A DNA stretch of 64,000 nt. It comes from Thermodesulfobacteriota bacterium. GTDB taxonomy: Bacteria; Desulfobacterota; Desulfobulbia; Desulfobulbales; SURF-16. Position 1 is the stretch's first letter. Each line of letters opens with the position of its first letter. The stretch lies in assembly GCA_049323655.1 (NCBI GenBank), contig JBMONO010000034.1, forward strand, positions 45,354 through 109,353, given 5' to 3'. This document shows, piece by piece, positions 27,973-59,380 of the stretch. Both the position numbers and the translations under genes were made by a program. The notes under the pieces are model-generated. The model was given only the letters and a program-made list of their open reading frames with translations. It ran no database searches and was not told the origin of the DNA.

Positions 27973-27976
27973 GCGA

Positions 27977-30582: not shown

Positions 30583-30613
30583 CTTTTTTTCTCCCAGCGG
30601 CACCGGCATTTGT

Positions 30614-31390
30614 TTATCCCTCCTGCCGTTTGATGAACTCCCGGCCCAGATTCATATAGCTCAGTGCTCCCACAGATCTGGGATCATATTCCATTACCGG
30701 TTTTCCGTAACTGGGGCATTCGCTCAAGCGCACATTGCGTGGGATGACGGTTTTGTAGACCTTTTCCTGGAAATGCTGCTTCACCTCTTTTGCGACTTGA
30801 AAGGTCAGTCGGTTGCGGCGGTCATACATTGTCAGGACGAGCCCCTCAATGCTGAGTTTTTTGTTGTATGAGCGTTTGACCAGGCGAATTGTGCGGACAA
30901 GCTGGCTTAGCCCTTCGAGGGCGAAATATTCGCACTGCAGCGGAATAATGACCGAGTCGGCAGCGGTGAGGGCGTTCAAGGTGAGTAGTCCGAGTGAAGG
31001 TGGGCAGTCGACGAAGATGTACTCGTAAGAACAGAGCAGTGGTTCCAGTAATTTTGCCAGGTACTGCTCGCGCTTGGAGGCTGACATCAGTTCGACCTCG
31101 ACCCCGATGAGATCGATGTGGGTCGGTAGCACGTGGAGATTTTCCAGGCAACTTGCCGGCTTGATGCTCTTTTCCACCTGTTCTCGGTCGAGATAGCAAT
31201 GATAGAGATGTCTTTCCATCCCTTTGGCGCTCACCCCGAGCCCGCTCGAAGCATTGCCCTGCGGGTCGGAGTCGATTACCAGCACTCTGTGGCCGAGTTT
31301 GGCGAGAGCTGCAGCCAGGTTGACCGTAGTCGTCGTTTTGCCTACCCCGCCCTTTTGGTTCGCCAATGCAACTATTTTCCCTCTTTTCAT
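30614..31390 (-). CDS. parA: Chromosome partitioning ATPase ParA/Soj
   Basis: ANQKGGVGKTTT, DSDPQGN, DCPPSLG, IPRNVRLSECPS. Confidence 0.96.
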   Translation of the reverse strand: MKRGKIVALANQKGGVGKTTTTVNLAAALAKLGHRVLVIDSDPQGNASSGLGVSAKGMERHLYHCYLDREQVEKSIKPASCLENLHVLPTHIDLIGVEVELMSASKREQYLAKLLEPLLCSYEYIFVDCPPSLGLLTLNALTAADSVIIPLQCEYFALEGLSQLVRTIRLVKRSYNKKLSIEGLVLTMYDRRNRLTFQVAKEVKQHFQEKVYKTVIPRNVRLSECPSYGKPVMEYDPRSVGALSYMNLGREFIKRQEG

Positions 31391-31408
31391 GTCGATCCTG
31401 TTGTGTGT

Positions 31409-31438
31409 GTCGGAATTTTAAAAAACGACGATTCCGAC
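31409..31438. repeat. 30-bp hairpin repeat GTCGGAAT-N14-ATTCCGAC, copy 1
   Basis: Perfect 8-bp inverted arms; 26/30 identical to 34251-34280. Confidence 0.6.
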
Positions 31439-31655
31439 GGGCGGCGCATTGTAACTCGTTGTTTTCACTTTCCCACCTGCCATGTTTACGGGTTTTTGCA
31501 AGACCATCATGTTTCGTCGAGAATGCTTGTTGAGGCGCCTCCTTTTTCGTCTGTCGGCGTGGCGGTTCGGGAGTGTGCGGTCTTGCGTTTTCCTCTTTTA
31601 CCGAATCCTCACCTGTTCGACAAGGGTATTTTTCTTTTTTGGCACTGTCTTTCTT

Positions 31656-31810
31656 GATGGTTTCGCAAAAAGTCAATTTCGGGGATGGCTAAGCAAAAAT
31701 CGTCAAATGCGAGGCGCGCACATTGCGAGGAATGAGGCGTACTTGGGTATGTCGCAGTGACGAGATAATGTGCAGCAACGAAGCAGTTGGCGACTTTTTG
31801 CGACGCCATC
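31656..31810. mobile_element. MITE-like element, family 1 termini with a different interior, copy E (155 bp)
   Basis: TIRs GATGGTTTCGCAAAAAGTC / rc GATGGCGTCGCAAAAAGTC (17/19); exact TTTCTT direct repeat on both flanks. Confidence 0.88.
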
Positions 31811-31863
31811 TTTCTTGTCCAGGGCCCATCGTGGGGTTTGTTCGGCAACGGAATATGGAGACG

Positions 31864-31879
31864 TGTTTCACGTGGAACA
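31864..31879. promoter_or_regulatory. parS centromere-like ParB loading site
   Basis: TGTTTCACGTGGAACA fits the parS consensus TGTTNCACGTGAAACA and lies ~470 bp upstream of parA. Confidence 0.85.
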
Positions 31880-31901
31880 ATCGCTGTTTTTTGATGTTGT
31901 A

Positions 31902-33035
31902 TCAGCAGGTTAAAAGAGAATGGACGAGCTCTGCGGTGCGGAGCATGTCGGTAAGTGTTATGGTTTCAGAGGTTGAATGAACGTTTTCCATGCCAATGCC
32001 AAGGATAGCACAGGGCAGGCCGGCGGCGTTAAGGAAGTTTGCGTCGCTGCCGCCGCCGGCGCGATGGAAGGTGAGCGGGCGCTTGAGAGCTTGAGCGGCC
32101 TGGCGGGCCCTCACCAGCGGCAGGCTGTCGTCGGCGAGCAACATGGCAGGGTATTGAAGCGGACTTTGGAAATGGAGCGATGGCGTGCTGCCGGTAAGAT
32201 GCTGCGGATCATTCCAGCCCTCAACCGCCTGGTAAAAAATTTGATGGTAAAGGTCAAGATAGGAGCGGAGGCGGGCGAGGTCATGGCTGCGAATCTCGCC
32301 TTTGACTTGGACCAGGTCGGGGACAATATTGGTGGCAGTACCGCCGGCAATGATACCTATATTGGCGGTGGACACATCGTCTAACTGGCCCATGGGCAGA
32401 CGGGCAATGGCCTGGGCCGCGATCTGAATGGCATTGATGCCATAACGGGGGCGAAGGCCGGCGTGGGCGGCAAGGCCACGAATCTCGGCAATAACGGCAT
32501 GGGAGGCCGGTGCACCAGTGACGACCGTATCGACACCGGTGGAGTCAAGGGCATAGCCGTAGACGGAACGCAGGCGCCTCCCGTCAAAGGACTTAGCACC
32601 AAGGAGGCCGATTTCCTCGCAGGTGGTAAGGAGAATCTCCAGCGGCGCAAAGGGTATCCCCTGCTCGCGCAGGGAGGCGATCGTTTCCAGAAGAATAGCG
32701 ATTCCCGCCTTATCATCAGCACCAAGCACCGTGTCGCCGGAGCTGGAGAAGACATCGTTTATCTTCCTGACCTTGATACCCTGACAGGGATTAATCACAT
32801 CGAGATGGCAGTTGAAGCAGACCGGCGGCGAATGCTGGAGACCCCCGGCAAAGCGAATGAGAAGGTTGCCGGTGTCGGAGCCGGTGGCGGCGCGCGTATC
32901 ATCTTCAAATATCGAGTCAGCCCCGAGTTCCCTGAAAAGCGAGCACAGATAGCCGGCAAGCTTTGCCTCGCCACGGGAAGGGCTGTCGATTTCACAAAGA
33001 GTGATAAATGTGTGGGAAAGACGATCGCTGTTCAT
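31902..33035 (-). CDS. M20/M25/M40 metallopeptidase (peptidase T-like)
   Basis: NCHLD, LGADDKAG, TTCEEIGL, AAHAG, GGGSDAN, HSTSE; start 33035 inferred. Confidence 0.9.
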   Translation of the reverse strand: MNSDRLSHTFITLCEIDSPSRGEAKLAGYLCSLFRELGADSIFEDDTRAATGSDTGNLLIRFAGGLQHSPPVCFNCHLDVINPCQGIKVRKINDVFSSSGDTVLGADDKAGIAILLETIASLREQGIPFAPLEILLTTCEEIGLLGAKSFDGRRLRSVYGYALDSTGVDTVVTGAPASHAVIAEIRGLAAHAGLRPRYGINAIQIAAQAIARLPMGQLDDVSTANIGIIAGGTATNIVPDLVQVKGEIRSHDLARLRSYLDLYHQIFYQAVEGWNDPQHLTGSTPSLHFQSPLQYPAMLLADDSLPLVRARQAAQALKRPLTFHRAGGGSDANFLNAAGLPCAILGIGMENVHSTSETITLTDMLRTAELVHSLLTC

Positions 33036-33040
33036 CCGTA

Positions 33041-33481
33041 TCACAGGCCGGAAGGCATGGAGTTGACTGACTGCAGCAAAGAAACTTCCATGGCCCGAAC
33101 AGGACAGGCAGAAACACAGAGTCCGCACCCGGTACACTTGTCCGGGTCGAACAGTACGGCCATGTCCGGCCGTGTAATGTACAATGCGCCGGTCGGGCAG
33201 ATCCCGGTACAGGCGCCGCACTGAAAACATTTTTCATCATCACGGCGAATGATAGTGGACAACGACTCGATATTGACGCCAAAGCCACGAAGATAGTCGA
33301 GTGCCTCGCGAACATTGTTCTTGTGACCAAGCAGTTCAAGAACCATCAAGCCCTCATGCTGGGGAAGAATGGTCGCCTTGAGAATGTTAAATTCAACGCC
33401 ATACTGGCCCACCAGTTTGCAGATGATCGGTTTATCGCTGGTTTCCTTGGGAAAGCGCAACACATAGATACGTGAATACAT
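33041..33481 (-). CDS. NIL-domain 2x[4Fe-4S] ferredoxin-like protein
   Basis: NIL-like EFNILKA segment; CFQCGACTGICP and CTGCGLCVSACP; GAGG RBS. Confidence 0.88.
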   Translation of the reverse strand: MYSRIYVLRFPKETSDKPIICKLVGQYGVEFNILKATILPQHEGLMVLELLGHKNNVREALDYLRGFGVNIESLSTIIRRDDEKCFQCGACTGICPTGALYITRPDMAVLFDPDKCTGCGLCVSACPVRAMEVSLLQSVNSMPSGL

Positions 33482-33829
33482 AAAAACCTCGATCAAGTAG
33501 GTTATCTTCACAAGAAAAGAGGGTCGCGAAGAAATGTAATACGCCGTCCGATCCTCTTATCTTGTCGCGGAGAATTGCGTGCTGTTGAACAAAAAAACCT
33601 AGTGCAAGCAAAGAAACGTCACTGTTTTCACATTAGTTAATCAGATACCGCTCACATTGCAAGCATTCTCTGCGCGGGCTGCTAACGTTCTAGATCGGAG
33701 ATGCTGTGCCGGGGAAAAAATCATTTGAAGGGGCGCACGGAAAAAGGTATACAGTGCCGACCGGGCCGATTCGGCGCGAATGGACAAAATGGAAATTTCG
33801 GAGCCGCGAACCAAGTGACAGGAAAAGGC

Positions 33830-34234
33830 GTGGACAGCGTCAGTCGTGAAGAATTGCTTGCCGTCATCGGTGACTTCATCAGCATGGGGCACCTTGAAAA
33901 TATTCTGGCCATGTTTCGCCAGGACACAGGGCTGTACCAGCTCAGTGGGGAACTTATCACTGATGAACGGTACATGGTTCGCATGGGCATGGTCGTCCTT
34001 TTTGAGGAACTGGCGCGCAACAATCGTCATGACATTCAGCTTGCTCTCCCTTCCCTGTTGCCGAAACTGGGCCACGAAAAGAGTTTTGTCCGCGGCGATA
34101 TCGCCACCCTGCTTGGCATTATCGGCACCAAGGAGGCCAGGCAAGCTCTGGAAAAGTTGCTTGAGGACGACGATGAGCAGGTTGTCTCCGTGATAAGGGA
34201 TATCTTGGCCGATTTTCCGGCTGAACAGCCCTGA
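33830..34234 (+). CDS. HEAT-repeat protein
   Basis: VRGDIATLLGIIG...LEKLLEDDDEQV HEAT-like pattern; GTG start after AGGA (uncertain). Confidence 0.65.
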   Translation: MDSVSREELLAVIGDFISMGHLENILAMFRQDTGLYQLSGELITDERYMVRMGMVVLFEELARNNRHDIQLALPSLLPKLGHEKSFVRGDIATLLGIIGTKEARQALEKLLEDDDEQVVSVIRDILADFPAEQP

Positions 34235-34250
34235 AATTTCAACAATTTTT

Positions 34251-34280
34251 GTCGAAATCATAAAAAACCACGATTCCGAC
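34251..34280. repeat. 30-bp hairpin repeat, copy 2
   Basis: GTCGAAATCATAAAAAACCACGATTCCGAC; 26/30 identical to copy 1. Confidence 0.55.
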
Positions 34281-34291
34281 GAACCATGTTT

Positions 34292-34410
34292 GAAAAAACC
34301 ATAAAAAGTTTTTTCACCACAAAGCGCACTGAGAACAGAGAGAAAACATCTTTAAATAAGATTAGTTGCATCTCGTGTTCTGTGGTAAAAAAGCTTTTTA
34401 CGATTTCATC
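34292..34410. mobile_element. MITE-like element, family 1 copy C (119 bp)
   Basis: Degenerate TIRs GAAAAAACCATAAAAAGTT / rc GATGAAATCGTAAAAAGCT; internal CACCACAAAG...TTCTGTGGT; a second TIR-like 19-mer follows at 34411-34429. Confidence 0.65.
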
Positions 34411-34477
34411 ATTTTTTGTCGCAACCATCAGTGATGGGCATCGACTGCCCGGATTATCACCCTGTCTAAAGGAATTT

Positions 34478-35092
34478 ATGCGTATTTTGCAGATCAACAA
34501 GGACAACCCGCAACAGCGACTTATTGAACAGGCAGTTGAGGTGCTCCGCCAGGGAGGGGTAGTAGCGTATCCGACGGACACAGTTTACGGAATCGGCTGC
34601 GATATCTTCAACCAGAAGGCTGTCAAGCGAATCTATCAGATTAAAAAGCGGGACAAAGAAAAACCGTTCAGCTTCATCTGCGCTGATCTGAAAGATGTCA
34701 GTCTCTACTGTTTCCTGTCGAATACCGCTTACAAGCTGATGAAAAAATCGCTGCCAGGACCCTATACCTTTGTCTTGCCGGCCATGAAAATCGTACCGAA
34801 AATCATGATGACAAAACAAAAAACCGTCGGAATTCGGGTTCCGGACAATACGATCTGTCAGTATCTGGTCAACACTCTGGGTAACCCTTTGCTGACGACC
34901 ACTGCCAGTCTGGATGATCTCTCCATTCCCCAGGATGCCTATGATGTTGCCAACAATCTCGGCAACATGATCGACGTCATCATTGACAGCCCCTGTTTTC
35001 CACCTGAGCCTTCCAGTGTCATTTCGCTTATCAGCGATATCCCAGAGATCCTGCGATTCGGCAAAGGGGATACGGGAGAATTTCTGAGATAA
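34478..35092 (+). CDS. Sua5/YciO/YrdC-family protein (threonylcarbamoyl-AMP synthase-like)
   Basis: VAYPTDTVYGIGC, LPGPYTFVL, VGIRVPD. Confidence 0.9.
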   Translation: MRILQINKDNPQQRLIEQAVEVLRQGGVVAYPTDTVYGIGCDIFNQKAVKRIYQIKKRDKEKPFSFICADLKDVSLYCFLSNTAYKLMKKSLPGPYTFVLPAMKIVPKIMMTKQKTVGIRVPDNTICQYLVNTLGNPLLTTTASLDDLSIPQDAYDVANNLGNMIDVIIDSPCFPPEPSSVISLISDIPEILRFGKGDTGEFLR

Positions 35093-35105
35093 TATTTTTC
35101 ACCTT

Positions 35106-35238
35106 GACAAACCCGTAATAAGTCTTTTTTGACCACAAAGTGCAGAGAAAATGCAGTGAAAATGTCTTTTATTACAATCAGTTACCTCTGTGTGCTCTGC
35201 GGTGACTGTGGTTAATTTTCACTTATTACGAGACCATC
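35106..35238. mobile_element. MITE-like element, family 1 copy D (133 bp), between convergent sua5-like and ihfB genes
   Basis: TIRs GACAAACCCGTAATAAGTC / rc GATGGTCTCGTAATAAGTG; flanks CACCTT / AACCTT; interior collinear with copy A (TACAATCAGTTA, CTGTGGTTAATTTTCA). Confidence 0.82.
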
Positions 35239-35554
35239 AACCTTTGTTAATGGCAGGCTTGGCGTCGTTCGGGTTTACACCGGCCAGCGGATCCTTGATG
35301 GATTTACTCATTGTGAAGTGAACGGTTTTCCGGGTCGATATGTGCATGACCTGGGCGGTCCGCGGGTTTTTTGTGATCCGTGATTTCCGCTCCCGGGTGC
35401 ACAAGCTGCCGAAGCCTCGAATTTCTACCCTTCTTCCCTCTTGCAGGGCCTCAGTTATGGCATCGAGGATGATATCGATCACATGGGTGACATCTTTTTT
35501 CAGATGCCCTGGGGTCTGTTCAGCTACAGAATTGATAAGGTCGCGTTTTAACAT
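35237..35554 (-). CDS. ihfB: Integration host factor beta / HU family
   Basis: GRRVEIRGFGS, RITKNPRT, VHFTMSK; position downstream of rpsA-sppA is typical of ihfB. Confidence 0.82.
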   Translation of the reverse strand: MLKRDLINSVAEQTPGHLKKDVTHVIDIILDAITEALQEGRRVEIRGFGSLCTRERKSRITKNPRTAQVMHISTRKTVHFTMSKSIKDPLAGVNPNDAKPAINKG

Positions 35555-35749
35555 ATAAAAATTCCTGGCCCAAAAATGGCTTGATAAATCAAGCTTTGTC
35601 TGTCCGGCTTTTGCTGCAAACCTGTTCGGGAACGTTAAAAAAAGTGACCTGTCGTTTGGACAGTCGCTGCGAGACCTTTTTCCTAACGTCTGTGAAGAGC
35701 CGGTCTGCAGAGTTTCAGAGCAGTAGATGACTATAAATACTATTTCGCA

Positions 35750-36673
35750 TCACGGTAAAAGGGTCCACTCATAGGAAAGGCGCGGATGTTCCATACCCGT
35801 GCGTCGCAGAATGTCGGTGAGGCCGTTTACGGCAAAAAGCTTGAAAAAAGAGAGGCGATCATTTTCCGGGTAAAGGAGGGTTGTGTTTTTCCCGGGATGA
35901 CCGGCAAGTTCGGCCGCCAGTCTGACCGCATCATTGAAATTGCCATAATCATCGATGAATCCCAGCTGCTTTGCGGTTTCTCCGGAAAAAATCCGACCGT
36001 CAGCAAACTCGCGTACCCTTTCAGGTGCAAGTTTTCTGCGGGCTGCTATATCCTCAACAAACTGTTTGTGCACCTCGTCGATCAGGCTTTGCAGGAGAAG
36101 CCGCTCATCTGAAGACAAAGCCCTGCTCGGCGATCCTATGTCTTTCATCGGGCCGCTTTTGACCACTTCATCTTTATATCCAATTTTCTGAAAGATCTCT
36201 TCAAGGTTGGGAAACTTGAGAATGACCCCCATGCTGCCAGTCAGGGTTCCCGGACTGGCAAGAATTTTCCCAGCGCCAATGGCGGCATAGTATCCACCAG
36301 AGGCTGCAACTGAACCCATCGAGGCAACGACGGGCTTGACCTTGTTTACACGGGCGATCTCGCGATAGATTTCTTGCGCCGCACCCACCGCGCCACCGGG
36401 GCTGTCAATGCGTACGACAAGGGCCTTGACTGCGGCATTTCGACTGAAACGATCGAGCTGAGCTAAAACTTCTTCAGCATCGGTGAGTACTCCTTTAAGG
36501 GGGACAATCGCAATGGGAACCGCATCGGTGTGGAAAAAATCGACACCGCTCTGCCTGGACAGGCTGGCAACAAAAAAGGTTATTCCGACCCAGAAAAAAA
36601 GTCCTATAGCTCCCAGGATAAGAAATCCGGTGAGCAATGGATGTTTCCGGCGGAATAACCTTTCTTCTGTCAT
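35750..36673 (-). CDS. sppA: Signal peptide peptidase SppA (36K type)
   Basis: RIDSPGGAVG, KPVVASMGSVAASGGYY, TGSMGV, ADGRIFSG. Confidence 0.94.
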   Translation of the reverse strand: MTEERLFRRKHPLLTGFLILGAIGLFFWVGITFFVASLSRQSGVDFFHTDAVPIAIVPLKGVLTDAEEVLAQLDRFSRNAAVKALVVRIDSPGGAVGAAQEIYREIARVNKVKPVVASMGSVAASGGYYAAIGAGKILASPGTLTGSMGVILKFPNLEEIFQKIGYKDEVVKSGPMKDIGSPSRALSSDERLLLQSLIDEVHKQFVEDIAARRKLAPERVREFADGRIFSGETAKQLGFIDDYGNFNDAVRLAAELAGHPGKNTTLLYPENDRLSFFKLFAVNGLTDILRRTGMEHPRLSYEWTLLP

Positions 36674-36700
36674 ACCTTTCAGTAAACGTCTGCGGGGTTC

Positions 36701-38434
36701 TTACTCTTCCCGACGTTCCTGATTGTTCAGCTCTTCCTTGAGCAGATCGCCCAGTGTTGACGGCCCGGATTGAGCCTGCATTTTTTTGTAATCTTCGAGC
36801 TTCATGTCATCACTGTCATCTGTCATTGCCTTGACGGAAAGCCCGATCTTGCGGTCTTTAGCAGAAACACTAATGACCTTGGTCTCGATCATATCACCGA
36901 CATTGTACATGCCAACCGGAGTGTTGATCTTGTCCTTGCTGATTTCCGAGACGTGGACTAGTCCTTCGACCCCGTCCTCAACCTCGACGAATATCCCGAA
37001 ATCAGTGACATTTGTGATTTTACCGGAAACATGGGTGCCAACCGGGTACTTTTCGATTGCCTGTTGCCAGGGATCAGGTGTCAATTGTTTGATGCCAAGA
37101 GAGAATCGCTCATTTTCCCGGTCGATTTTCAGCACCACGGCCTGAATTGTCTGCCCCTTGGAATATTTTTCAGAGGGATGCTTTATACGTTCCGTCCATG
37201 AGAGATCCGAAACATGTATCAGACCATCAATTCCCTCTTCAATGCCGATAAAAATACCGAAATCAGTGATGTTCTTGATTTTTCCTTCAATAATTGAGCC
37301 GACCGGGTAATTTTCAGTCACCAAATCCCATGGGTTGGGCTGCAACTGTTTCATTCCCAGTGAAATACGCTTGGCATCAACATCGATATTGAGGATCGAG
37401 ACATCAATGGCGTCGCCCACCGAAACGATTTTAGAGGGGTGACGGGTCTTTTTGGACCAGGACATCTCTGAAACATGAACAAGCCCCTCAACGCCTTCTT
37501 CCAATTCGGCAAAAACACCATAATCGGTAATGCTGACCACCCTGCCAACTGCTCGTGAGCCGACCGGGTACTTCTGTTCAACAGTTGACCAAGGATCAGG
37601 CTTGAGCTGCTTGACGCCGAGAGAAACTTTATCGGTTTCCTTGTCATACTTGAGGACCTTGACCTCAATCTCCTGTCCAACCTTGAAAAGCTTAGACGGA
37701 TGAGAAACCCGGCCCCAGGACAGGTCGGTGATATGACAGAGTCCGTCTAGACCGCCGAGGTCAATAAATACACCGTAGTCGGTGATATTGGTGATGGTGC
37801 CGACTACAACGGAACCTTCGGAAAGGGAAGTTCGCATCGCCTCCCGCAGCTTCTGGCGCTCCGCCTCAAGGATGGCACGGCGGGAAATGACAACATTGTT
37901 GCGTTTGCGGTTGAACTTAAGGATTTTAAATTCATATGTCTGACCAATCATGCTGTCAAGATCTTTGACCGGACGAAGATCGATCTGTGAATAGGGCAAA
38001 AAGGCCGGGACACCAATGTCGACCGAAAGACCGCCCTTAACCCGGCTCTCAATGCGTCCGCTGATGGTGCCGTCTGCCTCCTGGATGCTGGCAATATCCT
38101 CCCATACCTTAATGCCGATCGCCTTCTCGCGGGAAAGGCGCAGTCCGCCTTCAGCCTCGCGTTTTTCGACAAAGACGTCGAAAACGTCGCCGACCTTGAC
38201 TTCGATCTCTTCCCCTTCACTGCGAAATTCACTCAAGGGGATCTCACTCTCGGACTTGTCGCCGATATCTATAACCGCAAAGTTGTCGGTCAGTCCGATA
38301 ATGGTGCCCTGCACAACGTCACCGACATTGGCGACATTGAGCTGTTCGTCGTTGAAGAGCTCTGCAAAGCTCATCCCTTCCTGGATGGACGTAAAGTCAT
38401 CCTGTTGTTTGTTTTCTGTTGCGCTGTTTCCCAT
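36701..38434 (-). CDS. rpsA: 30S ribosomal protein S1
   Basis: Six S1 repeats (AFLPYSQID, NITDYGVFIDLGG, GLVHVSEMSW). Confidence 0.98.
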   Translation of the reverse strand: MGNSATENKQQDDFTSIQEGMSFAELFNDEQLNVANVGDVVQGTIIGLTDNFAVIDIGDKSESEIPLSEFRSEGEEIEVKVGDVFDVFVEKREAEGGLRLSREKAIGIKVWEDIASIQEADGTISGRIESRVKGGLSVDIGVPAFLPYSQIDLRPVKDLDSMIGQTYEFKILKFNRKRNNVVISRRAILEAERQKLREAMRTSLSEGSVVVGTITNITDYGVFIDLGGLDGLCHITDLSWGRVSHPSKLFKVGQEIEVKVLKYDKETDKVSLGVKQLKPDPWSTVEQKYPVGSRAVGRVVSITDYGVFAELEEGVEGLVHVSEMSWSKKTRHPSKIVSVGDAIDVSILNIDVDAKRISLGMKQLQPNPWDLVTENYPVGSIIEGKIKNITDFGIFIGIEEGIDGLIHVSDLSWTERIKHPSEKYSKGQTIQAVVLKIDRENERFSLGIKQLTPDPWQQAIEKYPVGTHVSGKITNVTDFGIFVEVEDGVEGLVHVSEISKDKINTPVGMYNVGDMIETKVISVSAKDRKIGLSVKAMTDDSDDMKLEDYKKMQAQSGPSTLGDLLKEELNNQERREE

Positions 38435-52858: not shown

Positions 52859-55603
52859 ATGCCGGAAAACTTTCTGACCCGCTCCTTTAATCTCGACAGC
52901 CTGCCCACCCTGCCTTCGGTGGCCATGGCGGCCATTCGTCTCATGGAGGGCGAGAATTCCACCTTTGATTCCCTGGCGGAGCTGCTGAAAAACGATCAGG
53001 TGCTTACCGGCAAGATTCTTCGCTATGCCAATTCCGTCCATGTCGGCGCCAGACGGGAAATCACCACCATTCCCCATGCCATCTCGGCGGTCGGCTTCAA
53101 TGCCTTGCGGAGCATCATCCTCTCGGTGTCGATTTTTGACAGTTTTTCCGCCGCCACTGAACAGGAGGAGGAAAAACTGGTCCGTTTCTGGCTGCATGCC
53201 ATCGGTGTCGCCGCCACTGCCGAGGCCCTGGCCCGCCGTCTCGACTTCCCTTCCCCGGATGAGGCCTATCTCTGCGGTCTGATTCATGATCTCGGCAAGC
53301 TCGTCTGCTATCAGCAGTTTCCCGACACCTTTTCCCGAATCTGCCAGGAGATCGAACAGCCCACCAGCGCTGCGGACAGCGTGTTGTCCCCCCTGGAAAC
53401 CGAGCAGCTCATCGCCGGTTTCGATCATATCGATGTCGGCAAACTGATTGGTGAACGCTACGGATTCCCCGATATCCTGACCCGCTCCATGTGGCTCCAT
53501 CACCAGCCGGTCATCGAGCCGATCGCGCCGGATGTCGACCATTTGCCTCAGCTTGTCCGTTTTGCCGATGTCCTGTGCGTCACCCATAATGTCGGCTCCA
53601 GTTACTTTCTCACCGAGCGCCCGGTCTGCCATGACTCCTTTCGGCGCGCCCTCGAATATCTGGCCCGTCTCCATGGATTGAGCGGGCCTGATCTCCAGGA
53701 TATTATGGAGAATGTCCATGCCAGGGTGGAGGATGTCTGCAAGATCCTCGGTTTCTGGAACAGAGACGAATACCGGCAGCTGCTGCGCACGGCCAATGTC
53801 AGCCTGGGCCGGATGAGCCTGCAGCTCGACGAAAACAACCAGGATCTCTTCGCCACCAACCGCATCCTCTCCGCCACCTGTCAGATGCATGAGCAACTCC
53901 ATTCCGATCTCTCGCTGCGGGAGGCTGCGGAAATTGTCTGCCGTTCGGTGTGTGCGGCCTTTGAGGTGGAGCGGGCGCTTTGTCTGATCCGTGATCCGAA
54001 AGCGCACCGTTTCATCGGCGCCATTGTTGAACGGGACGTCTTTCACCCGGTCGAGCTGCCTTCCATTCTTGCCGATATGGTCCGGCGCAAAAACCATGCG
54101 ACCCGCGACATTGAAATCGAGGCGGCAAACCGGCTGGAGCAGGCCACCCACGACCTGGTGCATGGCAGAATCGACGAATCGCGCATGTTCAGCCTGTTGT
54201 CCGGGGCAAAATTTCTCGCCACCTTTTTTGTTGCGGACCGGAATTCCCGCTGGCGCAAGGAGCCGCTGCTCGGGCAGCTGCTGATCGATTTCAGCGACGG
54301 TCCTGATTGCATTCGTAACGGGATGACCGGTCTGCGCCAGAATTTTGAGGCATTTGCCGCCGCCGTCGGCACCGCCATTGACCGCCTGCTCCTTCAGCAG
54401 GCCCTTTCCGTGCAGGCGAGAAAACTGGCAGAGGCGTCCCGGCGGATGGAACAGCAACAGCAACAGCTCTTTCATTCCCACCGGCTGGCCACGGTCGGCC
54501 ATCTTGCCTATGGCATGGCCCATGAGATCAACAATCCGCTGACCGTGGTCTCCCTCAATCTCCAGCTGCTGAAGCGGATGCTGCCGACGGATACCCTCGA
54601 ACCGGGCAAAAGGCTGGAAATAATCTCCGATCAGGTGGAGCGGATTGCCGGAGTGGTTAATAATCTGATGGCCTTTGCCAAACCGACCGAACCGAAATTC
54701 GGCCCGACCGAGGTAGCGGACGTCGTGAAAAAGGCGTTGCGGCTGATGGAGAACCGCGGCGCCTTGGCCAGCATCACGGTGGACAACCAGCTCTCCGGCA
54801 AACTACCGCAGGTCATGGTCGATTCCCAGCAGATCGAGCAGGTCTTTCTTAATCTGTTCATCAACAGTTGCCAGGCCATGCCGCAGGGCGGCAGGCTGAC
54901 CATCTCCGCCTTTGCCGCCAGCGAGCATATCGATGTTTTTGTCCGTGACAGCGGCCATGGCATTGCCGCGCAGGATCTGACCAAAATCTTTGATCCCTTT
55001 TTCACGACCCGAATGGAAGGGGAGGGATCCGGACTCGGCCTGGCGGTCTCTCACACTATCATGGAGCACAACAAAGGCGCCCTCCAGGTGGAAAGTGAGC
55101 CTGGCCAGGGCACGACTTTTATCGTCCGTTTGCCCCTAGATAAGAGCGACCGCCTACGCGAGATGAAAAAAATTCTCCAGACCAGGAAAAAAGAGGACGC
55201 GGCCAAGGCGGGCGAAGGACGGCATCGGATTCTGGTGGTGGATGACGAAGAATCGCTCAATTCCGTGGTGCAGGAAACCTTGCGGGCCGCCGGCTACAGT
55301 GTTGACGGCGCCTATGACGGAGTGGAAGGCCTGGAAAAGCTGCGACAGGACAAATATGATGTCGTCCTGCTTGATCTGCGCATGCCGCGTAAGGACGGGC
55401 TGGCGGTGCTCAAATTCATCAAACAGGAATATCCGAACATCGCCGTAATCATCATTACAGGCCATGCCTCTATGGCCGAGATTCAGGAAACTGCAGCCAA
55501 GGGGGCCTTTGCCTGCCTGAAAAAGCCCTTTCTCCTCGATCGGCTGCTTGACACCATTGCCCGGGCCATCAAGGGCAGGGAAGGCCGGGCGGCGGCATCG
55601 TGA
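52859..55603 (+). CDS. Hybrid sensor: HDOD domain + histidine kinase + receiver
   Basis: HDOD (LPTLP, D..LTGKILRYANS, GLIHDLGK); H-box AHEINNPL, N-box QVFLNLFINS, DSGHGI, FDPFFTT, GSGLGL; receiver VVDDE, LLDLRMP, KP. Confidence 0.9.
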   Translation: MPENFLTRSFNLDSLPTLPSVAMAAIRLMEGENSTFDSLAELLKNDQVLTGKILRYANSVHVGARREITTIPHAISAVGFNALRSIILSVSIFDSFSAATEQEEEKLVRFWLHAIGVAATAEALARRLDFPSPDEAYLCGLIHDLGKLVCYQQFPDTFSRICQEIEQPTSAADSVLSPLETEQLIAGFDHIDVGKLIGERYGFPDILTRSMWLHHQPVIEPIAPDVDHLPQLVRFADVLCVTHNVGSSYFLTERPVCHDSFRRALEYLARLHGLSGPDLQDIMENVHARVEDVCKILGFWNRDEYRQLLRTANVSLGRMSLQLDENNQDLFATNRILSATCQMHEQLHSDLSLREAAEIVCRSVCAAFEVERALCLIRDPKAHRFIGAIVERDVFHPVELPSILADMVRRKNHATRDIEIEAANRLEQATHDLVHGRIDESRMFSLLSGAKFLATFFVADRNSRWRKEPLLGQLLIDFSDGPDCIRNGMTGLRQNFEAFAAAVGTAIDRLLLQQALSVQARKLAEASRRMEQQQQQLFHSHRLATVGHLAYGMAHEINNPLTVVSLNLQLLKRMLPTDTLEPGKRLEIISDQVERIAGVVNNLMAFAKPTEPKFGPTEVADVVKKALRLMENRGALASITVDNQLSGKLPQVMVDSQQIEQVFLNLFINSCQAMPQGGRLTISAFAASEHIDVFVRDSGHGIAAQDLTKIFDPFFTTRMEGEGSGLGLAVSHTIMEHNKGALQVESEPGQGTTFIVRLPLDKSDRLREMKKILQTRKKEDAAKAGEGRHRILVVDDEESLNSVVQETLRAAGYSVDGAYDGVEGLEKLRQDKYDVVLLDLRMPRKDGLAVLKFIKQEYPNIAVIIITGHASMAEIQETAAKGAFACLKKPFLLDRLLDTIARAIKGREGRAAAS

Positions 55604-56658
55604 TGGATTCCCGCCTGCTCACCATAGACGATCTGGTCCGCCTCACCGGGCTTGAGGAGAGTCTGCTGCGCTATTACGAATCCGAATACGGCGACGCGTT
55701 GCCCGAAAAAATTCTCCAGGGCGGGGTACTCTATTTTGCCCCGGCCAGCGTTACCGCCTTTGCCGCTATCCATGCCCGCAACGACACCGGCGCCTTGCCT
55801 CAGCCGGTCGCCGCCTCCCGCGCCCGGGTCATTGCTGTTACCTCCGGCAAGGGAGGGGTGGGAAAAACCAACCTGGCCCTTAACCTGGCGGTGGAATGGC
55901 AGCGGCTGGGAAAAATGACGGTGGTGCTCGACGGCGACATGGGGCTCGCCAACATCCACCTGCTGGCCGGCATCACCCCACGCCACTGCCTTCTCGATCT
56001 CATGCGGGGCACGGCGGAACTGGCGGACATCATCGAGGCCGGGCCGGAAGGCATCGGCATCATTGCCGGCGGCAATGGACTGCTCTCTCTGGCCGACAGT
56101 AGTCGACAGGATCGGTTGCGGGTCATCGATGCGCTGATCGAGCTGGAAAAGGCGGCCGACATCATCGTCGTCGATACCGGCGCAGGCATGGGGCGGGGCG
56201 TGCGCGATTTTCTCATGGCCGCCGATGAAATTATCTTTGTCATCACGCCCGACATCACCTCGCTGACCGATGCCTATGGTCTGCTGAAGGGGTTGCACCA
56301 GGAAAATATGCCCCGCCGCCCCCTCTATCTGGTAGTCAATATGGCTACCACTCTCAAACAGGCGGCGGATGCGGCCCGTCGTTTTGTCACCTGCGCCCGG
56401 GATTTTCTCGATCGCATCGTGATAAACAGCGGCTATATCCTCAAGGATGCCACCGTGTCGCTGGCGACGGCGCGGCGCACCCCCCATGCGATCTACCGAC
56501 CGGAGTCCCGGGTCAGCAAAAACACCCGGGCCATTGCCTGCAATCTCCTGCGCAGCGAGACAGACCGCAGTCGCGGCAGTTCCTCCTTCGGGCGCTATCT
56601 CAATCTTATTCGCGCCGCTCGGCCCGGGAGCCTGGCAACGGAGAGGAAAACGGCATGA
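55600..56658 (+). CDS. MinD/FlhG(FleN)-like ATPase with N-terminal MerR-type HTH
   Basis: LTIDDLVRLTGL..SLLRYYE HTH; TSGKGGVGKT, DGDMGLAN, VDTGAG, TPDITSLTDAY. Confidence 0.86.
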   Translation: MMDSRLLTIDDLVRLTGLEESLLRYYESEYGDALPEKILQGGVLYFAPASVTAFAAIHARNDTGALPQPVAASRARVIAVTSGKGGVGKTNLALNLAVEWQRLGKMTVVLDGDMGLANIHLLAGITPRHCLLDLMRGTAELADIIEAGPEGIGIIAGGNGLLSLADSSRQDRLRVIDALIELEKAADIIVVDTGAGMGRGVRDFLMAADEIIFVITPDITSLTDAYGLLKGLHQENMPRRPLYLVVNMATTLKQAADAARRFVTCARDFLDRIVINSGYILKDATVSLATARRTPHAIYRPESRVSKNTRAIACNLLRSETDRSRGSSSFGRYLNLIRAARPGSLATERKTA

Positions 56659-57521
56659 GCTCTTCCGGCTGGGCAGAAAAATTTGGGTTTTCCCGCAATC
56701 CCTTCAAGGACACCCTGAGCACCGATCTTTTTTACCGGACCAGACAGCACGAAGAGGCCCTGGTCAAGCTCCGCATCGGCATTGAGGACTGCCACGCCCT
56801 TATCCTGCTCAGCGGGGCCTCCGGCACCGGCAAAACCCTGCTTTCCCAGCTGGTGGTGCGTGAGTTGGGCGAGCGTTTCGCCACAGTGATTGTGCCGGTC
56901 TACCCGGAGATGGGCAAGGGAACCCTTCTTGATCGCATCCTGGCCGAGGCCGTCCCGGAGCGGCGGCAGGCGGCCAAAAGCGCCGATCAGCTCCTTCGTC
57001 AGCTGCAGGAGACGGCCTTGGCTCTTTACCAGAGCGGCAGGCGGCTGGTCATCGTCATTGACGAGGCCCATTTTCTGAAAGCCGATGCCCTCCATATCCT
57101 TCGCACCCTCTCCAACCTGGAAACAGAACAGGAAAAGCTGGTAACGGTTCTGCTTATCGCCGAAAAAGGGCTGAGTCGTCGATTGGCTCATCCCTCCTAT
57201 GCTTCCCTGCGAAGCCGCATCACCTTTGCCGTGCAGCTTGAACCCCTGCAGCAGCGGGAAACAGAACAGTTCATCAAGTATCGGCTCCTTAAATGCGGCG
57301 CCTCTCCATCCCTCCTGACCTGCGATGCCTATACTGAAGCCCATCGGCTCAGCAACGGCATACCAAGGGAGATCAACCGCCTGCTCTACAACGGTTTTCT
57401 TGAGGCCATGAGCGGCAATCACCCAGTCCTGACCGGGGCACTGATGGCGACGGCGGGCCGGAAGGCAGGTCTGTACCATGTCCCGCATGCGTCGATTGCG
57501 ACTCAGTCGGTCGCCCCGTAA
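56655..57521 (+). CDS. ExeA/GspA-family AAA+ ATPase (cytoplasmic, no peptidoglycan-binding tail)
   Basis: FGFSRNPF, GASGTGKT, IDEAH, SLRSRI, SNGIPREIN. Confidence 0.86.
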   Translation: MSSSGWAEKFGFSRNPFKDTLSTDLFYRTRQHEEALVKLRIGIEDCHALILLSGASGTGKTLLSQLVVRELGERFATVIVPVYPEMGKGTLLDRILAEAVPERRQAAKSADQLLRQLQETALALYQSGRRLVIVIDEAHFLKADALHILRTLSNLETEQEKLVTVLLIAEKGLSRRLAHPSYASLRSRITFAVQLEPLQQRETEQFIKYRLLKCGASPSLLTCDAYTEAHRLSNGIPREINRLLYNGFLEAMSGNHPVLTGALMATAGRKAGLYHVPHASIATQSVAP

Positions 57522-57654: not shown

Positions 57655-57776
57655 TTTCAGGCCGCTCGTCGTGATCAGCACAGGAATGTCATCTTGCAAA
57701 TGGCGATCCTTTCGTGGCCGAGCCGGTCCATTTTCCCTTTGAGCGGATGACTGCCGTCGCCTCGGGCTTTAGTTTA

Positions 57777-57956
57777 GAGCTTATCCACAAATAAATCTTT
57801 GATGCTCGCATCCGGCTTTTGGCCGCCTTTGCCCGTTGCTCAATCGCAAAATCTTCGCCGCAGCGCTGCTACGCCTGCGGTTTTGCTCAATCGCCCCGGT
57901 CAAATCCGTCGCAAAATCCGGCGCGATCCCTGAAAAGCTTATTTGTGGATAAGCTT
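57777..57956. mobile_element. MITE-like element, family 2 (180 bp), IS5-family-like ends containing DnaA boxes
   Basis: Perfect 17-bp TIR AGCTTATCCACAAATAA (57778-57794 / 57939-57955); TTA on both flanks; internal TTGCTCAATCGC twice. Confidence 0.8.
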
Positions 57957-58003
57957 TTAATTTTCTCGTTGTCTCTTCTTCTTTTCTTGCTGGCCCTTTC
58001 CGT

Positions 58004-59257
58004 TCAGGGGCAGGAGAGTTGAGTGCGCCGGATCAAGGTGTATGGCAGCCACTCTGCCTCCCGGTCCGGGGTCAGCACCACCCGACTGCCCGGATTGGCC
58101 TGGGACAGGGGGCGTCCCTCCGCCGTTTCCAGGGCCAGCACCCGAAACGGAGTATTGGCGATGCCACGGCCCATGTACTCGAGGGTGTCGCCCGGTATGA
58201 TGCGGTGGCGGACATCGACAAACGGTCTGGCGCCGCCGCTCAGGATCAGGGCAGCCGGACCGTAGGTCTGATCGACCTGGGCGCCGTTGTAACACATGTC
58301 ATCCGCGCCGGGCGGGCCGGCAAAAAAATTCTCAGTATAGCCGCGACTGCCGAGTTTGGCCATCTCCGCCATGAACGGCGGCGGCAGGGTGATGGCCGCC
58401 GCCGGAGCAGCCTGCAACGCCGCCCGAACATAATCGAGAGCGGCCCGATAGACGCGGACAATGCCGCCGGCGTAATAGATGCCCTTCATCCGCCCCTCGA
58501 TTTTGAGTGAATCCACCCCGGCCGCGAGCAGTTCCGGTAGACGCCTGATCAGGCAGAGATCCTTGCTGTTGAAGATATATGTGCCGCGGCCGTCCTCCTC
58601 CACCGGAAAGAACTGGCCGGTCCGCTTTTCCTCCTGGAGTTGATAGCCGTATCGGCAGGGATGGGCACAGTTGCCCTGATTGGCGTCCCGGCCGGTCAGA
58701 TAGAGGCTCAGCATGCAGCGGCCGGAGTAAGAGATGCAGAGGGCGCCGTGGACAAAGACCTCGAGTTTACAGGACAGGATTGCGCGCATTTCACGGATCT
58801 CGGCGAGTGAAAGTTCCCGGGCGAGATTGAGTCGGCTGACTCCCTGTTCCTGCCAGAAGAGGCCGCCTTCCACATTGGTGACATTGGCCTGGGTGGAGAG
58901 ATGGATCGAGAGGGTCGGCGCCACCCGGCGGGCAATGCGCAGCACCCCCGGATCGGCGATGATAAGCCCGTCCACTCCGAACCGGGCCAGCTCGCCGATG
59001 CAGGCGGCGACGCCGTCGAGATCCCGGTTGTGGGCAAAGATGTTGACCGCGGCAAAGACCCGCGCTCCTCGCTCATGAGCAAAGATGATGCCTTCCTGCA
59101 GTTCTTCGACGGAAAAATTGGCGGCATGAGCGCGCAGGCTGTAGTCCCTGGCGCCGAGATAGACGGCGTCCGCCCCGTAGGCAATGACGGTTTTCAGTTT
59201 TTCCAGGCTGCCGGCAGGGGCCAGCAGTTCACAGGGAAACGACAGGTGCTGTTCCAC
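58004..59257 (-). CDS. Peptidase U32-family Fe-S protein (TrhP-like tRNA hydroxylation factor)
   Basis: ELLAPAGS, GADAVYLG, HLSTQ, HGALCISYSGRC...CAHPCR, NSKDLC, LKIEGR; GTG start after GGAG. Confidence 0.85.
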   Translation of the reverse strand: MEQHLSFPCELLAPAGSLEKLKTVIAYGADAVYLGARDYSLRAHAANFSVEELQEGIIFAHERGARVFAAVNIFAHNRDLDGVAACIGELARFGVDGLIIADPGVLRIARRVAPTLSIHLSTQANVTNVEGGLFWQEQGVSRLNLARELSLAEIREMRAILSCKLEVFVHGALCISYSGRCMLSLYLTGRDANQGNCAHPCRYGYQLQEEKRTGQFFPVEEDGRGTYIFNSKDLCLIRRLPELLAAGVDSLKIEGRMKGIYYAGGIVRVYRAALDYVRAALQAAPAAAITLPPPFMAEMAKLGSRGYTENFFAGPPGADDMCYNGAQVDQTYGPAALILSGGARPFVDVRHRIIPGDTLEYMGRGIANTPFRVLALETAEGRPLSQANPGSRVVLTPDREAEWLPYTLIRRTQLSCP

Positions 59258-59380
59258 GATGCTCCCCGCGCCGCAAACGGCGCAAAAAGATGAAAAAGGT
59301 ATTGACCACGTTCCTCGGAAACTGTTTGAATGGGCGACAAAACGCAAGCACCCATATAAACTTTTTTTTCCCGGGCTTCA

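What the first reader, a model, noticed from the sequence alone, without database searches (positions are those of the whole stretch)
57777..57956. MITE whose two termini each contain a perfect DnaA box
Seen: TTATCCACA at 57781-57789 and its reverse complement at 57944-57952, inside a perfect 17-bp TIR, with TTA on each flank. Known: TTATCCACA is the consensus DnaA box; the IS50/Tn5 outer end has a DnaA site; GAG ends with TWA duplications occur in IS5-family subgroups. Inference: a non-autonomous element that could tie its transposition to DnaA or, if multicopy, scatter DnaA-titrating sites (datA/DARS-like) across the chromosome.
Basis: partly seen in the sequence, partly recalled or inferred. 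Interest (0 to 1): 0.65.

Follow-up and report, generated by a model that had tools for sequence, protein, structure and literature searches.

The report
IS5-type MITE; DnaA box incidental
The 180-bp stretch is a real, multicopy, recently mobile miniature transposon of the IS5 family (IS1031 type). The "DnaA box" in its ends is most likely just one lineage's spelling of the transposase-binding repeat, not a replication-linked signal.

Summary
Window 57777-57956 is a 180-bp element with an 18-bp terminal inverted repeat, GAGCTTATCCACAAATAA. Seventeen positions are perfect here and the outermost pair is mutated. It is flanked by a TTA duplication, and TTATCCACA sits in both arms.

It is a MITE:
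- Copies with other flanks and TTA/TAA duplications occur in related genomes.
- Depth rises about 10-fold inside it in metagenomes that hold this organism.
- A sister copy has a precise empty-site allele, 183 bp shorter.
- IS elements of 924-949 bp (IS5 family, IS1031-type: orfA/orfB, GAG/GAA ends, 3-bp TWA duplication) carry the same ends.

The DnaA inference is not supported. In 13 related IS elements and in a MITE superfamily of more than 100 copies that share its interior, box positions 7-8 are among the most variable TIR positions (ACA, ATA, TTA, GTA, GCA). They can differ between the two ends of one IS. Only 4 of 110 ends sampled through the shared interior carry a perfect box. The window has no box cluster, no dnaA gene and no clear skew turn. 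DnaA may bind the site in vitro, but nothing suggests a selected role.

An unexpected extra: the hairpin apex is more conserved than the ends.

The parts
57774..57776 (.). left target-site duplication, TTA
   Evidence: The same 3-bp TTA or TAA repeat flanks copies at other loci. In the metagenome sample 39 of 55 copies have a perfect TTA/TTA or TAA/TAA pair.
57777..57794 (+). left terminal inverted repeat, GAGCTTATCCACAAATAA (18 bp)
   Evidence: The same 18-mer ends L005 and L078, the 942-bp IS in L063 and the IS end in L057.
57781..57789 (+). 9-mer TTATCCACA (DnaA-box consensus), which is TIR positions 5-13
   Evidence: Homologous positions read TTATCCATA, TTATCCTTA, TTATCCGTA, TTATCCGCA, TTATCCGCC, CTATCCACA or TTGTCCGTA in relatives.
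57795..57938 (.). non-coding interior. With the TIRs it folds into one long imperfect hairpin.
   Evidence: RNA minimum free energy is -68.6 kcal/mol on the + strand (z -5.7) and -79.1 on the - strand (z -6.9). Some interior pairs show compensatory changes. No Rfam family matches. No promoter-like or terminator-like site lies inside the element.
57839..57893 (.). conserved apex of the hairpin (CTCAATCGCAAAATC..GCTGCTACGCCTGCGGTTTTGCTCAATCG). It includes the 22-nt motif at 57865-57886 that was used for the metagenome scan.
   Evidence: The 28 columns next to the motif average 84% pairwise identity among 11 TIR subfamilies. The TIRs average 61-64% and the subterminal parts 58-63%.
57939..57956 (-). 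right terminal inverted repeat. It reads AAGCTTATCCACAAATAA on the - strand, so the terminal base 57956 is mutated (T for C).
   Evidence: G at TIR position 1 is invariant in 46 distinct TIR variants.
57944..57952 (-). second TTATCCACA 9-mer, inside the right TIR
57957..57959 (.). right target-site duplication, TTA

Best explanation

**How it works (inferred steps marked)**
- It encodes nothing.
- A DDE transposase supplied in trans, of the orfA/orfB type, is inferred to bind its 18-bp ends GAGCTTATCCACAAATAA, cut at the terminal G and insert at TWA. The 3-bp duplication of that target is observed.
- The element lies between two convergent genes: an AAA_22 ATPase gene at 56655-57521 (+) and a U32 peptidase gene at 58004-59347 (-).
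- The insertion is shared with a genome about 95.6% identical, so it is older than that split.
- Its right terminal base is mutated, so this copy may no longer move (inferred).

**The DnaA box.** TTATCCACA is simply positions 5-13 of the transposase-recognition repeat in this sub-lineage. The family consensus is GARCTTATCC-NN-AAATAA, and the two N positions are free to vary. The perfect DnaA consensus is therefore most likely a by-product. DnaA may occupy it, but there is no evidence that transposition or replication control depends on it.

**Shown versus inferred**
- Shown: anatomy, copy number, mobility and the link to the IS family.
- Inferred: trans-mobilisation by a cognate transposase.
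- Inferred from comparative data only: the lack of a DnaA role.
For: **Structure**
- Perfect 17-bp TIR and TTA duplication.

**Other copies**
- L078 is a second copy in the same MAG as the orthologous locus L068. It is 93% identical, has other flanks and has TSD TTA.
- L005 is a copy in another genome, 90.6% identical, with TSD TAA.
- Homology stops exactly at 57777 and 57956.

**Multicopy**
- In three metagenome runs that hold this organism, contig depth rises from 15, 32 and 8 to about 150, 250-310 and 50-125 inside 57776-57956. Contigs break there, and several different flanks start exactly at the element ends.

**Mobility**
- In runs X1, X4 and X7, contigs join L078 1623 to 1807 and skip exactly 183 bp, which is the 180-bp MITE plus one TSD. 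The flanks are about 96% identical (31 differences in 788 bp). Run X13 has the filled site.

**Autonomous relatives**
- L063 5863-6804 is a 942-bp IS with ends GAACTTATCCATAAATAA and AAGCTTATCCACAAATAA and TSD TTA. Its orfA carries DUF4096, its orfB carries DDE_Tnp_1_2, and both hit NCBIfam transpos_IS5_3.
- A further 12 IS elements of this clade were examined. Six of them could be measured end to end, at 924-949 bp. They carry the same TIR skeleton, and TWA duplications wherever both flanks could be read.
- The IS1031 group is defined by about 850 bp, orfA/orfB with a -1 frameshift, a TNA target and a 3-bp repeat (PMC12016507).

**Box not conserved**
- IS ends read ACA, ATA, TTA, GTA, GCA or GCC at box positions 7-9, and the two ends of one IS can differ.
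- Among 55 distinct complete MITEs found through the shared interior, 4 of 110 ends have a perfect box, 9 have one mismatch and 57 have three.
- Among the closest copies, about 8-9 substitutions fall in the 9 box positions against 3-4 in the other 9 TIR positions (my count).

**No replication-origin context**
- No dnaA homologue, no box cluster and no clear turning point in GC skew.
Against: - No autonomous IS with these ends was found in this organism or its nearest MAG. The type-A IS copies are in a Methyloglobulus (gammaproteobacterial) MAG, and no relative of that IS with at least 80% nucleotide identity is in the runs that hold this organism.
- No empty-site allele was seen for the window copy itself.
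- Copy number comes from metagenome contig depth, which can include other organisms.
- A perfect consensus box at both ends is exactly what a high-affinity DnaA site looks like, and Tn5 shows that such a site in a transposon end can matter (PMC3347997). Comparative variation argues against a conserved role but cannot exclude one acquired by this lineage.
Confidence: 0.78

Rival explanations
1. A DnaA-coupled MITE. DnaA binds the perfect boxes in both ends and gates or assists transposase access, as at the Tn5 outside end. Alternatively, the roughly ten copies act as dispersed DnaA-titrating sites.
For: - A perfect TTATCCACA in both arms of the window copy and of L005, and in one arm of several others.
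- The Tn5 outside and mosaic ends carry a DnaA site, and DnaA can out-compete transposase there (PMC3347997).
- About 10 copies would add up to about 20 perfect boxes to the roughly 19 expected by composition in an assumed genome of 4.5 Mb.
Against: - Box positions 7-8 vary freely in cognate IS elements and sister MITE subfamilies, and within single IS elements.
- The most abundant MITE subfamily has TTGTCCGTA, three mismatches, and is clearly prolific.
- There is no excess conservation of the box within the closest copies.
- Two inverted boxes with 154 bp between them do not resemble datA or DARS (that architecture is recalled from memory).
- By my own composition estimate, 20 extra boxes would add only about 15% to the roughly 130 relaxed-consensus (TTWTNCACA) sites expected.
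Confidence: 0.1
2. The element's lasting role is as a host-useful hairpin, for example an RNA stabiliser, a processing site or a terminator between genes. The IS1031-type ends are only the vehicle. The conserved apex is the selected part. This can be true together with the best explanation.
For: - The whole element folds as one long hairpin with z -5.7 and -6.9, with some compensatory pairs in the interior.
- The apex is 84% conserved across subfamilies whose TIRs are 61-64% alike.
- TIR-less copies persist at orthologous intergenic sites and are better conserved than the neighbouring coding DNA: L152/L206 show 95% against 71%.
- The window copy lies between convergent genes.
Against: - The scan that collected the copies required 22 nt of the apex, so conservation nearby is partly ascertainment.
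- Gene conversion among repeats could also keep cores alike.
- No canonical terminator or promoter was detected in the element, and no Rfam family matches.
- No RNA data could be found.
- Only two orthologous pairs were examined.
Confidence: 0.2
3. Not a transposon at all. It would be a vertically inherited palindromic intergenic repeat, REP-like or a replication-related site, whose inverted ends are structural.
For: - The window copy is shared with the orthologous locus in L068.
- No empty allele was seen at this locus.
- The element is strongly palindromic.
Against: - Copies at unrelated loci end at exactly the same bases and have TTA/TAA duplications.
- A sister copy has a precise 183-bp filled/empty difference.
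- Full-length IS elements carry the same ends.
- There is no dnaA gene, box cluster or skew turn.
Confidence: 0.02

Closest known systems
IS1031 group of the IS5 family (for example ISLrh, PMC12016507), plus unnamed 'IS5 family transposase' elements on plasmids of Azotobacter chroococcum (NZ_CP066312), Polaromonas sp. JS666 (NC_007949), Aminobacter sp. MSH1 pBAM1 and Pandoraea oxalativorans
   Same: - GAG/GAA ends and a 3-bp TNA (here TWA) duplication.
- TIR skeleton GARCYTATCCRYAAATA. The Azotobacter IS even has CTATCCACA.
- Relatives of 924-949 bp with orfA (DUF4096) and orfB (DDE).
   Different: - The window element is 180 bp, has no transposase and has an unrelated interior.
- ISLrh itself has a quite different TIR, GAACCTGTCTAGTATCT.
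- No cognate IS was found in the same organism.
Prokaryotic MITEs in general (Correia, RUP, Nezha, Chunjie; reviews PMC10969869 and PMC3184786)
   Same: Small size, TIRs, target duplication, multicopy, intergenic location, strong hairpin potential and trans-mobilisation by an IS transposase.
   Different: - Chunjie, the described deltaproteobacterial MITE of similar size (178-235 bp), has 21-bp TIRs and 9-bp repeats, so this is not Chunjie.
- No paper in the library contains this element's TIR or core strings.
Tourist / mPIF MITEs of the eukaryotic PIF-Harbinger superfamily (recalled from memory, not tested here)
   Same: - A 3-bp TWA (TTA/TAA) duplication.
- Transposases related to IS5.
- Several sister subfamilies here have GGGCCTGTTC-type ends that resemble Tourist/mPIF ends.
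   Different: Those are eukaryotic elements. The resemblance of the ends is a lead from memory only.
IS50/Tn5 outside end with its DnaA site
   Same: - A DnaA-box-like 9-mer inside the transposase-binding end, reading inward.
- TTATNCACAANT is shared. The OE sequence is recalled from memory. The existence of the DnaA site and its competition with transposase come from PMC3347997.
   Different: - IS4 family, 9-bp duplication, 19-bp ends.
- In Tn5 the role of DnaA was shown genetically. Here relatives lack the box and nothing has been tested.
datA / DARS DnaA-regulatory loci of E. coli (architecture recalled from memory)
   Same: They contain consensus DnaA boxes outside oriC.
   Different: Those loci are unique chromosomal sites with clusters of three or more closely spaced boxes plus IHF sites. 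Here there are two inverted boxes with 154 bp between them, on a mobile repeat.

Membership tests
MITE (non-autonomous class II element) | Short (under about 300 bp) with no coding capacity | tested here: met
   The element is 180 bp. The only ORF that touches it (57819-58022) has no Pfam hit.
MITE (non-autonomous class II element) | Terminal inverted repeats flanked by a target-site duplication | tested here: met
   An 18-bp TIR (17 perfect here) and a TTA duplication. Of 55 related copies, 39 have perfect TTA or TAA duplications.
MITE (non-autonomous class II element) | Several copies at unrelated loci | tested here: met
   L078 and L005 have different flanks. Depth is about 10-fold higher, and multiple junctions are seen in runs X1, X2 and X4.
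MITE (non-autonomous class II element) | Filled and empty alleles that differ by element plus one duplication | tested here: met
   For the sister copy L078, contigs of X1, X4 and X7 skip exactly 183 bp. This was not seen for the window copy itself.
MITE (non-autonomous class II element) | An autonomous IS with matching ends in the same genome | tested here: inconclusive
   Matching IS copies were found (L063, L057), but in a Methyloglobulus MAG. None was found in the 64-kb window, in the four MAG077 loci recovered by the exact 17-mer scan, or at 80% or more nucleotide identity in the runs holding this organism.
IS5 family, IS1031 group (as source of the ends) | Ends GAG, with a 3-bp duplication of TNA | tested here: met
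   GAG at the left end. The right end is AAG here but GAG in L068, L078 and L005. The duplication is TTA or TAA. The group definition comes from PMC12016507.
IS5 family, IS1031 group (as source of the ends) | Cognate full-length IS of about 850-950 bp with overlapping orfA/orfB that encode a DDE transposase | tested here: met
   The IS elements in L063, L100, L101, L223-226, L230 and L231 measure 924-949 bp, with DUF4096 and DDE_Tnp_1/DDE_Tnp_1_2. NCBIfam transpos_IS5_3 hits the two halves at 88 and 51 bits, each below the whole-protein cut-off of 110 because the halves were scored separately.
Functional DnaA-binding locus (oriC, datA or DARS type) | A cluster of several closely spaced DnaA boxes | tested here: not met
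   There are only two perfect boxes, with 154 bp between them, both created by the TIR. Boxes with up to 1 mismatch number 13 against 7.0 +/- 2.9 expected and are scattered.
Functional DnaA-binding locus (oriC, datA or DARS type) | Origin context: dnaA/dnaN nearby and a GC-skew turning point | tested here: not met
Cumulative skew shows no V-shaped turn at the locus.
Functional DnaA-binding locus (oriC, datA or DARS type) | DnaA actually binds | not testable with these tools
   This needs EMSA, footprinting or ChIP.
Transposon end that uses DnaA as a host factor (Tn5-like) | The box is conserved in the ends of related elements | tested here: not met
   Box positions 7-8 read AC, AT, TT, GT or GC among 13 IS relatives, and they differ between the two ends of L063, L223, L230 and L234. 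Only 4 of 110 MITE ends are perfect.
Transposon end that uses DnaA as a host factor (Tn5-like) | Transposition frequency depends on DnaA | not testable with these tools
   This needs a genetic assay.
Chunjie MITE (Geobacter uraniireducens) | 21-bp TIRs and 9-bp direct repeats | tested here: not met
   Here the TIR is 18 bp and the duplication 3 bp. Chunjie's features come from PMC3184786.

The most novel reading that the evidence does not exclude
This MITE sub-lineage has acquired high-affinity DnaA boxes at both termini. DnaA occupancy would then compete with or assist the transposase, as DnaA does at the Tn5 outside end, coupling mobility to the cell's replication-initiation state. The roughly ten copies would about double the number of perfect DnaA boxes in the chromosome and measurably buffer free DnaA.
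Probability: 0.08. Interest if true: 0.6.

Novelty: new member of a known kind. Interest (0 to 1): 0.3.

Why it matters
The element gives a clean, apparently undescribed example of an IS1031-type (TWA-duplicating, 'Tourist-like') MITE in uncultured Thermodesulfobacteriota. It comes with direct filled/empty evidence of recent movement.

It belongs to a large metagenomic superfamily in which both ends change together from subfamily to subfamily while the hairpin apex stays put. That pattern is useful for studying how MITEs switch transposase partners, and whether hosts retain the hairpin.

It also matters for annotation. A perfect DnaA consensus inside a repeat should not be read as an origin or a DnaA-regulatory site without comparative support.

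If the DnaA reading were nevertheless true, it would be a second, independent case of a transposon end that uses the replication initiator.

Tried and rejected
- **Rfam.** Searches of the locus and of eight related loci found no family above threshold. The only hit was a chance match at E = 0.46.
- **Promoter and terminator scan.** Nothing lies inside the element.
- **Empty allele of the window copy.**
  - Exact-protein look-ups of the two flanking window genes found nothing on record, possibly because of start-codon choice.
  - Laying eight runs on the window locus showed no joint.
- **RNA runs.** None could be listed for the locus.
- **Viral contigs.** A scan for the core motif found none.
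- **Plasmid collection.** No match to the MITE DNA.
- **Full-text search for the TIR and core strings.** No paper holds them.
- **Cognate IS in the same community.** Laying the runs that hold this organism on the L063 IS gave only short conserved transposase fragments.
- **IS5 transposases in the fetched loci.** tblastn against the fetched genome and metagenome loci (L001-L222) found them only in L063 and L057. An earlier tblastn also found none in the window.
- **Chunjie identity.** Rejected.
- **Chance 17-mer hits.** Most single matches in the genome scan are chance, including one kept inside a conserved gene of Smithella/Syntrophaceae.
- **RNA-structure reading of TIR covariation.** Rejected. 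The two arms change together because both must fit one transposase, so this is not evidence of RNA structure.

Full report
**1. The observation**

The sequence is as described.
- AGCTTATCCACAAATAA lies at 57778-57794 (+) and 57939-57955 (-) and nowhere else in the window. That holds even with up to 3 mismatches allowed. Shuffles give a mean of 0.04 matches, and 1 of 100 reaches two.
- Perfect TTATCCACA occurs only at 57781 (+) and 57944 (-).
- TTA flanks both sides.

The two boxes are not independent, because the inverted repeat copies one into the other. About 0.27 perfect boxes are expected by composition in 64 kb, so the box count alone is unremarkable. The inverted repeat is the real signal.

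**2. Boundaries and mobility**

A scan of one genome per species for the 17-mer returned 99 loci, most of them chance single hits. Three matter.
- L068, from a Thermodesulfobacteriota MAG, is the orthologous locus. It is 95.6% identical over 6.4 kb and carries the element.
- L078 is another contig of the same MAG. It has a 93% identical copy with unrelated flanks.
- L005, from another 'Deltaproteobacteria' MAG, has a 90.6% identical copy with yet other flanks.

Homology begins and ends at window 57777 and 57956. The consensus end is the 18-mer GAGCTTATCCACAAATAA. The flanking triplet is TTA, TTA and TAA in these copies.

In the window copy the last base, 57956, is T instead of C. TIR position 1 is G in all 46 distinct end variants seen later, so this copy may be crippled.

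Metagenome runs that contain this organism at about 100% identity show three things.
- Contig depth jumps from 15, 32 and 8 to about 150, 250-310 and 50-125 inside 57776-57956.
- Assemblies break inside the element.
- Several different flanks start exactly at its ends.

This fits roughly ten copies per genome equivalent, with the caveat that other organisms may contribute to the depth.

No empty allele was seen at the window locus. When the same runs were laid on the L078 locus, contigs of three runs joined 1623 to 1807. They skip exactly 183 bp, which is the 180-bp element plus one triplet. The flanks differ at 31 of 788 positions (about 96% identical). The run from the MAG's own sample has the filled site. 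That is a classical filled/empty pair, so the family moved after these two lineages, about 4-5% diverged, separated.

**3. Which transposon family**

L063, from a Methyloglobulus MAG, contains a 942-bp element.
- Its ends are GAACTTATCCATAAATAA and AAGCTTATCCACAAATAA, and it is flanked by TTA.
- It encodes an orfA with DUF4096 and an orfB with DDE_Tnp_1_2.
- Both ORFs hit NCBIfam transpos_IS5_3.
- This copy carries frameshifts.

L057 has the end of a second IS whose orfA is only 59% identical, yet it has the perfect type-A end.

A protein search with orfA gave 202 relatives. DNA was fetched for eleven further IS elements, from metagenomes and from plasmids of cultured bacteria. The six that could be measured end to end are 924-949 bp. 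All have overlapping orfA/orfB or a single annotated 'IS5 family transposase', GAG/GAA ends, and TTA or TAA duplications where both flanks are readable.

These are the defining features of the IS1031 group of the IS5 family: about 850 bp, orfA/orfB with a -1 frameshift, a TNA target and a 3-bp repeat (PMC12016507). The window element shares only the 18-bp ends with these IS elements. Its interior is unrelated.

**4. Is the DnaA box meaningful?**

The ends of the 13 IS elements examined read as follows. Where only one spelling is given, only one end was read or both ends agree (L100, L231).

| Source | End(s) |
|---|---|
| L063 | ..TTATCCATA.. / ..TTATCCACA.. |
| L057 | ..CCACA.. |
| L102 | ..CCGCC.. 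|
| L223-226 | ..CCTTA.. / ..CCATA.. |
| L227 | ..CCATA.. |
| L230 | ..CCGCA.. / ..CCGTA.. |
| L231, L100, L101, Polaromonas, Aminobacter, Pandoraea | ..CCGTA.. |
| Azotobacter | CTATCCACA / CTATCCATA |

The clade skeleton is GARCYTATCC-NN-AAATA. The two free positions are box positions 7 and 8. From established knowledge of the TTWTNCACA consensus, those positions are needed for DnaA recognition. They differ even between the two ends of one IS.

It revealed a superfamily of MITEs of about 173-190 bp, mostly 179-183 bp, with the same interior and TTA/TAA duplications, but at least ten end types.
- GAGCTTATCCACAAATAA
- ..CCAT..
- GGGCTTGTCCGTAAATA (by far the commonest)
- GGGCCTGTCATCAAATAACTTG
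- GGGACTCGGAAAATACTAATATACC
- GGGCTCGTAAAGAAATAACTTG
- further types

Both arms change together. That is expected if each subfamily is matched to its own transposase.

Of 110 ends from 55 distinct complete copies, 4 have a perfect box, 9 have one mismatch and 57 have three. Among the closest copies (the window, L068, L078, L005, L218, L154, the four ..CCAT.. copies, L012 and L035) I count about 8-9 substitutions in the nine box positions. The other nine TIR positions have 3-4.

So the box is not specially protected, and prolific relatives do without it. The locus also lacks any origin-like context: no dnaA homologue, no box cluster and no clear skew turn.

The precedent is real. The Tn5 outside and mosaic ends carry a DnaA site, and DnaA can displace transposase there (PMC3347997). 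From memory, the Tn5 outside end shares TTATNCACAANT with this end.

DnaA would probably bind a perfect consensus in vitro. About ten copies could roughly double the perfect boxes expected by chance, which is about 19 for an assumed genome of 4.5 Mb. That would add only about 15% to the relaxed-consensus sites (my estimate).

I therefore rate a selected DnaA role at about 0.1.

**5. What else the element is**

The whole 180 nt folds into one long imperfect hairpin. The RNA minimum free energy is -68.6 kcal/mol (z -5.7) on the + strand and -79.1 (z -6.9) on the - strand. Some interior pairs keep pairing through double changes (columns 51/134 and 60/125). No promoter-like or terminator-like site lies in the element and no Rfam family matches.

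The apex of the hairpin, window 57839-57893, is unexpectedly the best conserved part. The 28 columns next to the search motif, which the search did not force, average 84% pairwise identity across 11 end types. The ends average 61-64% and the subterminal parts 58-63%.

Copies without recognisable ends persist at orthologous intergenic sites.
- L152/L206: the core's left half is 95% identical against 71% for the upstream coding DNA.
- L180/L157 is a second such pair.
- In L152 a remnant left end, GGGACTGTTCAC, now supplies the last codons of the upstream gene, and this is conserved at protein level in L206.

This hints that the hairpin is retained by hosts or homogenised by gene conversion. The sample is biased by the search motif and rests on two pairs, so I record it as a lead, not a result.

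**6. Comparison and novelty**

- The element works like, and passes the tests for, a MITE of the IS5/IS1031 kind.
- It is not Chunjie, the described deltaproteobacterial MITE, which has 21-bp TIRs and 9-bp repeats.
- No paper in the library contains its end or core sequences, and it is absent from the plasmid and viral collections.
- From memory, its closest functional analogues are the eukaryotic Tourist/mPIF MITEs of the IS5-related PIF/Harbinger superfamily, which also duplicate TWA.

It is a new member of a known kind. The end-switching superfamily with a conserved apex is the most interesting by-product.

**7. Verdict**

- Observation: confirmed.
- MITE and IS5-subgroup interpretation: supported, including multicopy status, an empty site for a sister copy and autonomous relatives.
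- DnaA coupling or titration: not supported by comparative evidence and untested experimentally.
- Interest: 0.3.

Noticed in passing
window 57839-57893; loci L103-L222: The apex of the MITE hairpin is more conserved (84% mean pairwise identity outside the search motif) than the ends (61-64%) across at least ten end types of a MITE superfamily of about 180 bp. Both ends co-vary between subfamilies. It looks like one cargo hairpin paired with many transposase-specific ends.
   Followed up: partly
L152 (core motif at about 2753-2774) and L206; L180 and L157: Copies of the hairpin core without recognisable ends sit at orthologous intergenic sites just after a stop codon. In L152/L206 the core's left half is 95% identical while the upstream coding DNA is 71% identical. 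A remnant left end, GGGACTGTTCAC, encodes the last residues of the upstream protein (..ERDCSLKD* against ..ERECSLKD*).
   Followed up: partly
L074 about 6272-6293; L088 about 2984-3005; L008 about 6756-6781: L074 and L088 contain isolated 22-bp palindromes GAGCTTATTTGTGGATAAGCTC, made of the first 8 and last 14 nt of the element. L008 holds a fragment of the right end only. These may be internal-deletion remnants. The right end of the full element is itself a 10-bp stem with a 6-nt loop (window 57933-57958).
   Followed up: no
window 57956: The terminal base of the right end is T here. It is C in the orthologous copy L068 and in L078 and L005. The corresponding G of the TIR is invariant in 46 end variants, so the window copy may be unable to transpose.
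   Followed up: partly
window 57833-57914 in run X2: Contig depth reaches 2,300-5,400 here against 32 in the flanks. A related element sharing only the central part is therefore extremely abundant in that biofilm metagenome.
   Followed up: no
L078 1890-1990 and 2022-2090: Two further short stretches near the sister MITE show 5-10-fold depth and several length-variable joints (70-100 bp skipped) in four runs. This is another repeat or a variable tandem array.
   Followed up: no
window 52859-57521: Upstream on the + strand lie three genes: an HDOD-HisKA-HATPase-receiver hybrid kinase (52859-55603), a MerR-HTH/ParA-like ATPase (55600-56658) and an AAA_22 ATPase (56655-57521), whose ORFs overlap by 4 nt. 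The MITE lies 256 bp after the last of them and 48 bp after the convergent U32 peptidase gene.
   Followed up: no
window about 22000-38000: GC falls to 0.47-0.50 at 34-38 kb against 0.58-0.62 elsewhere. AT skew is strongly negative (-0.11 to -0.23) at 22-32 kb. This may be a foreign island.
   Followed up: no
L010, L025, L045, L016: The same 17-mer is conserved within about 60 nt of the apparent start of a gene in Smithella/Syntrophaceae genomes. It is unrelated to the MITE: a chance match preserved alongside the gene.
   Followed up: partly
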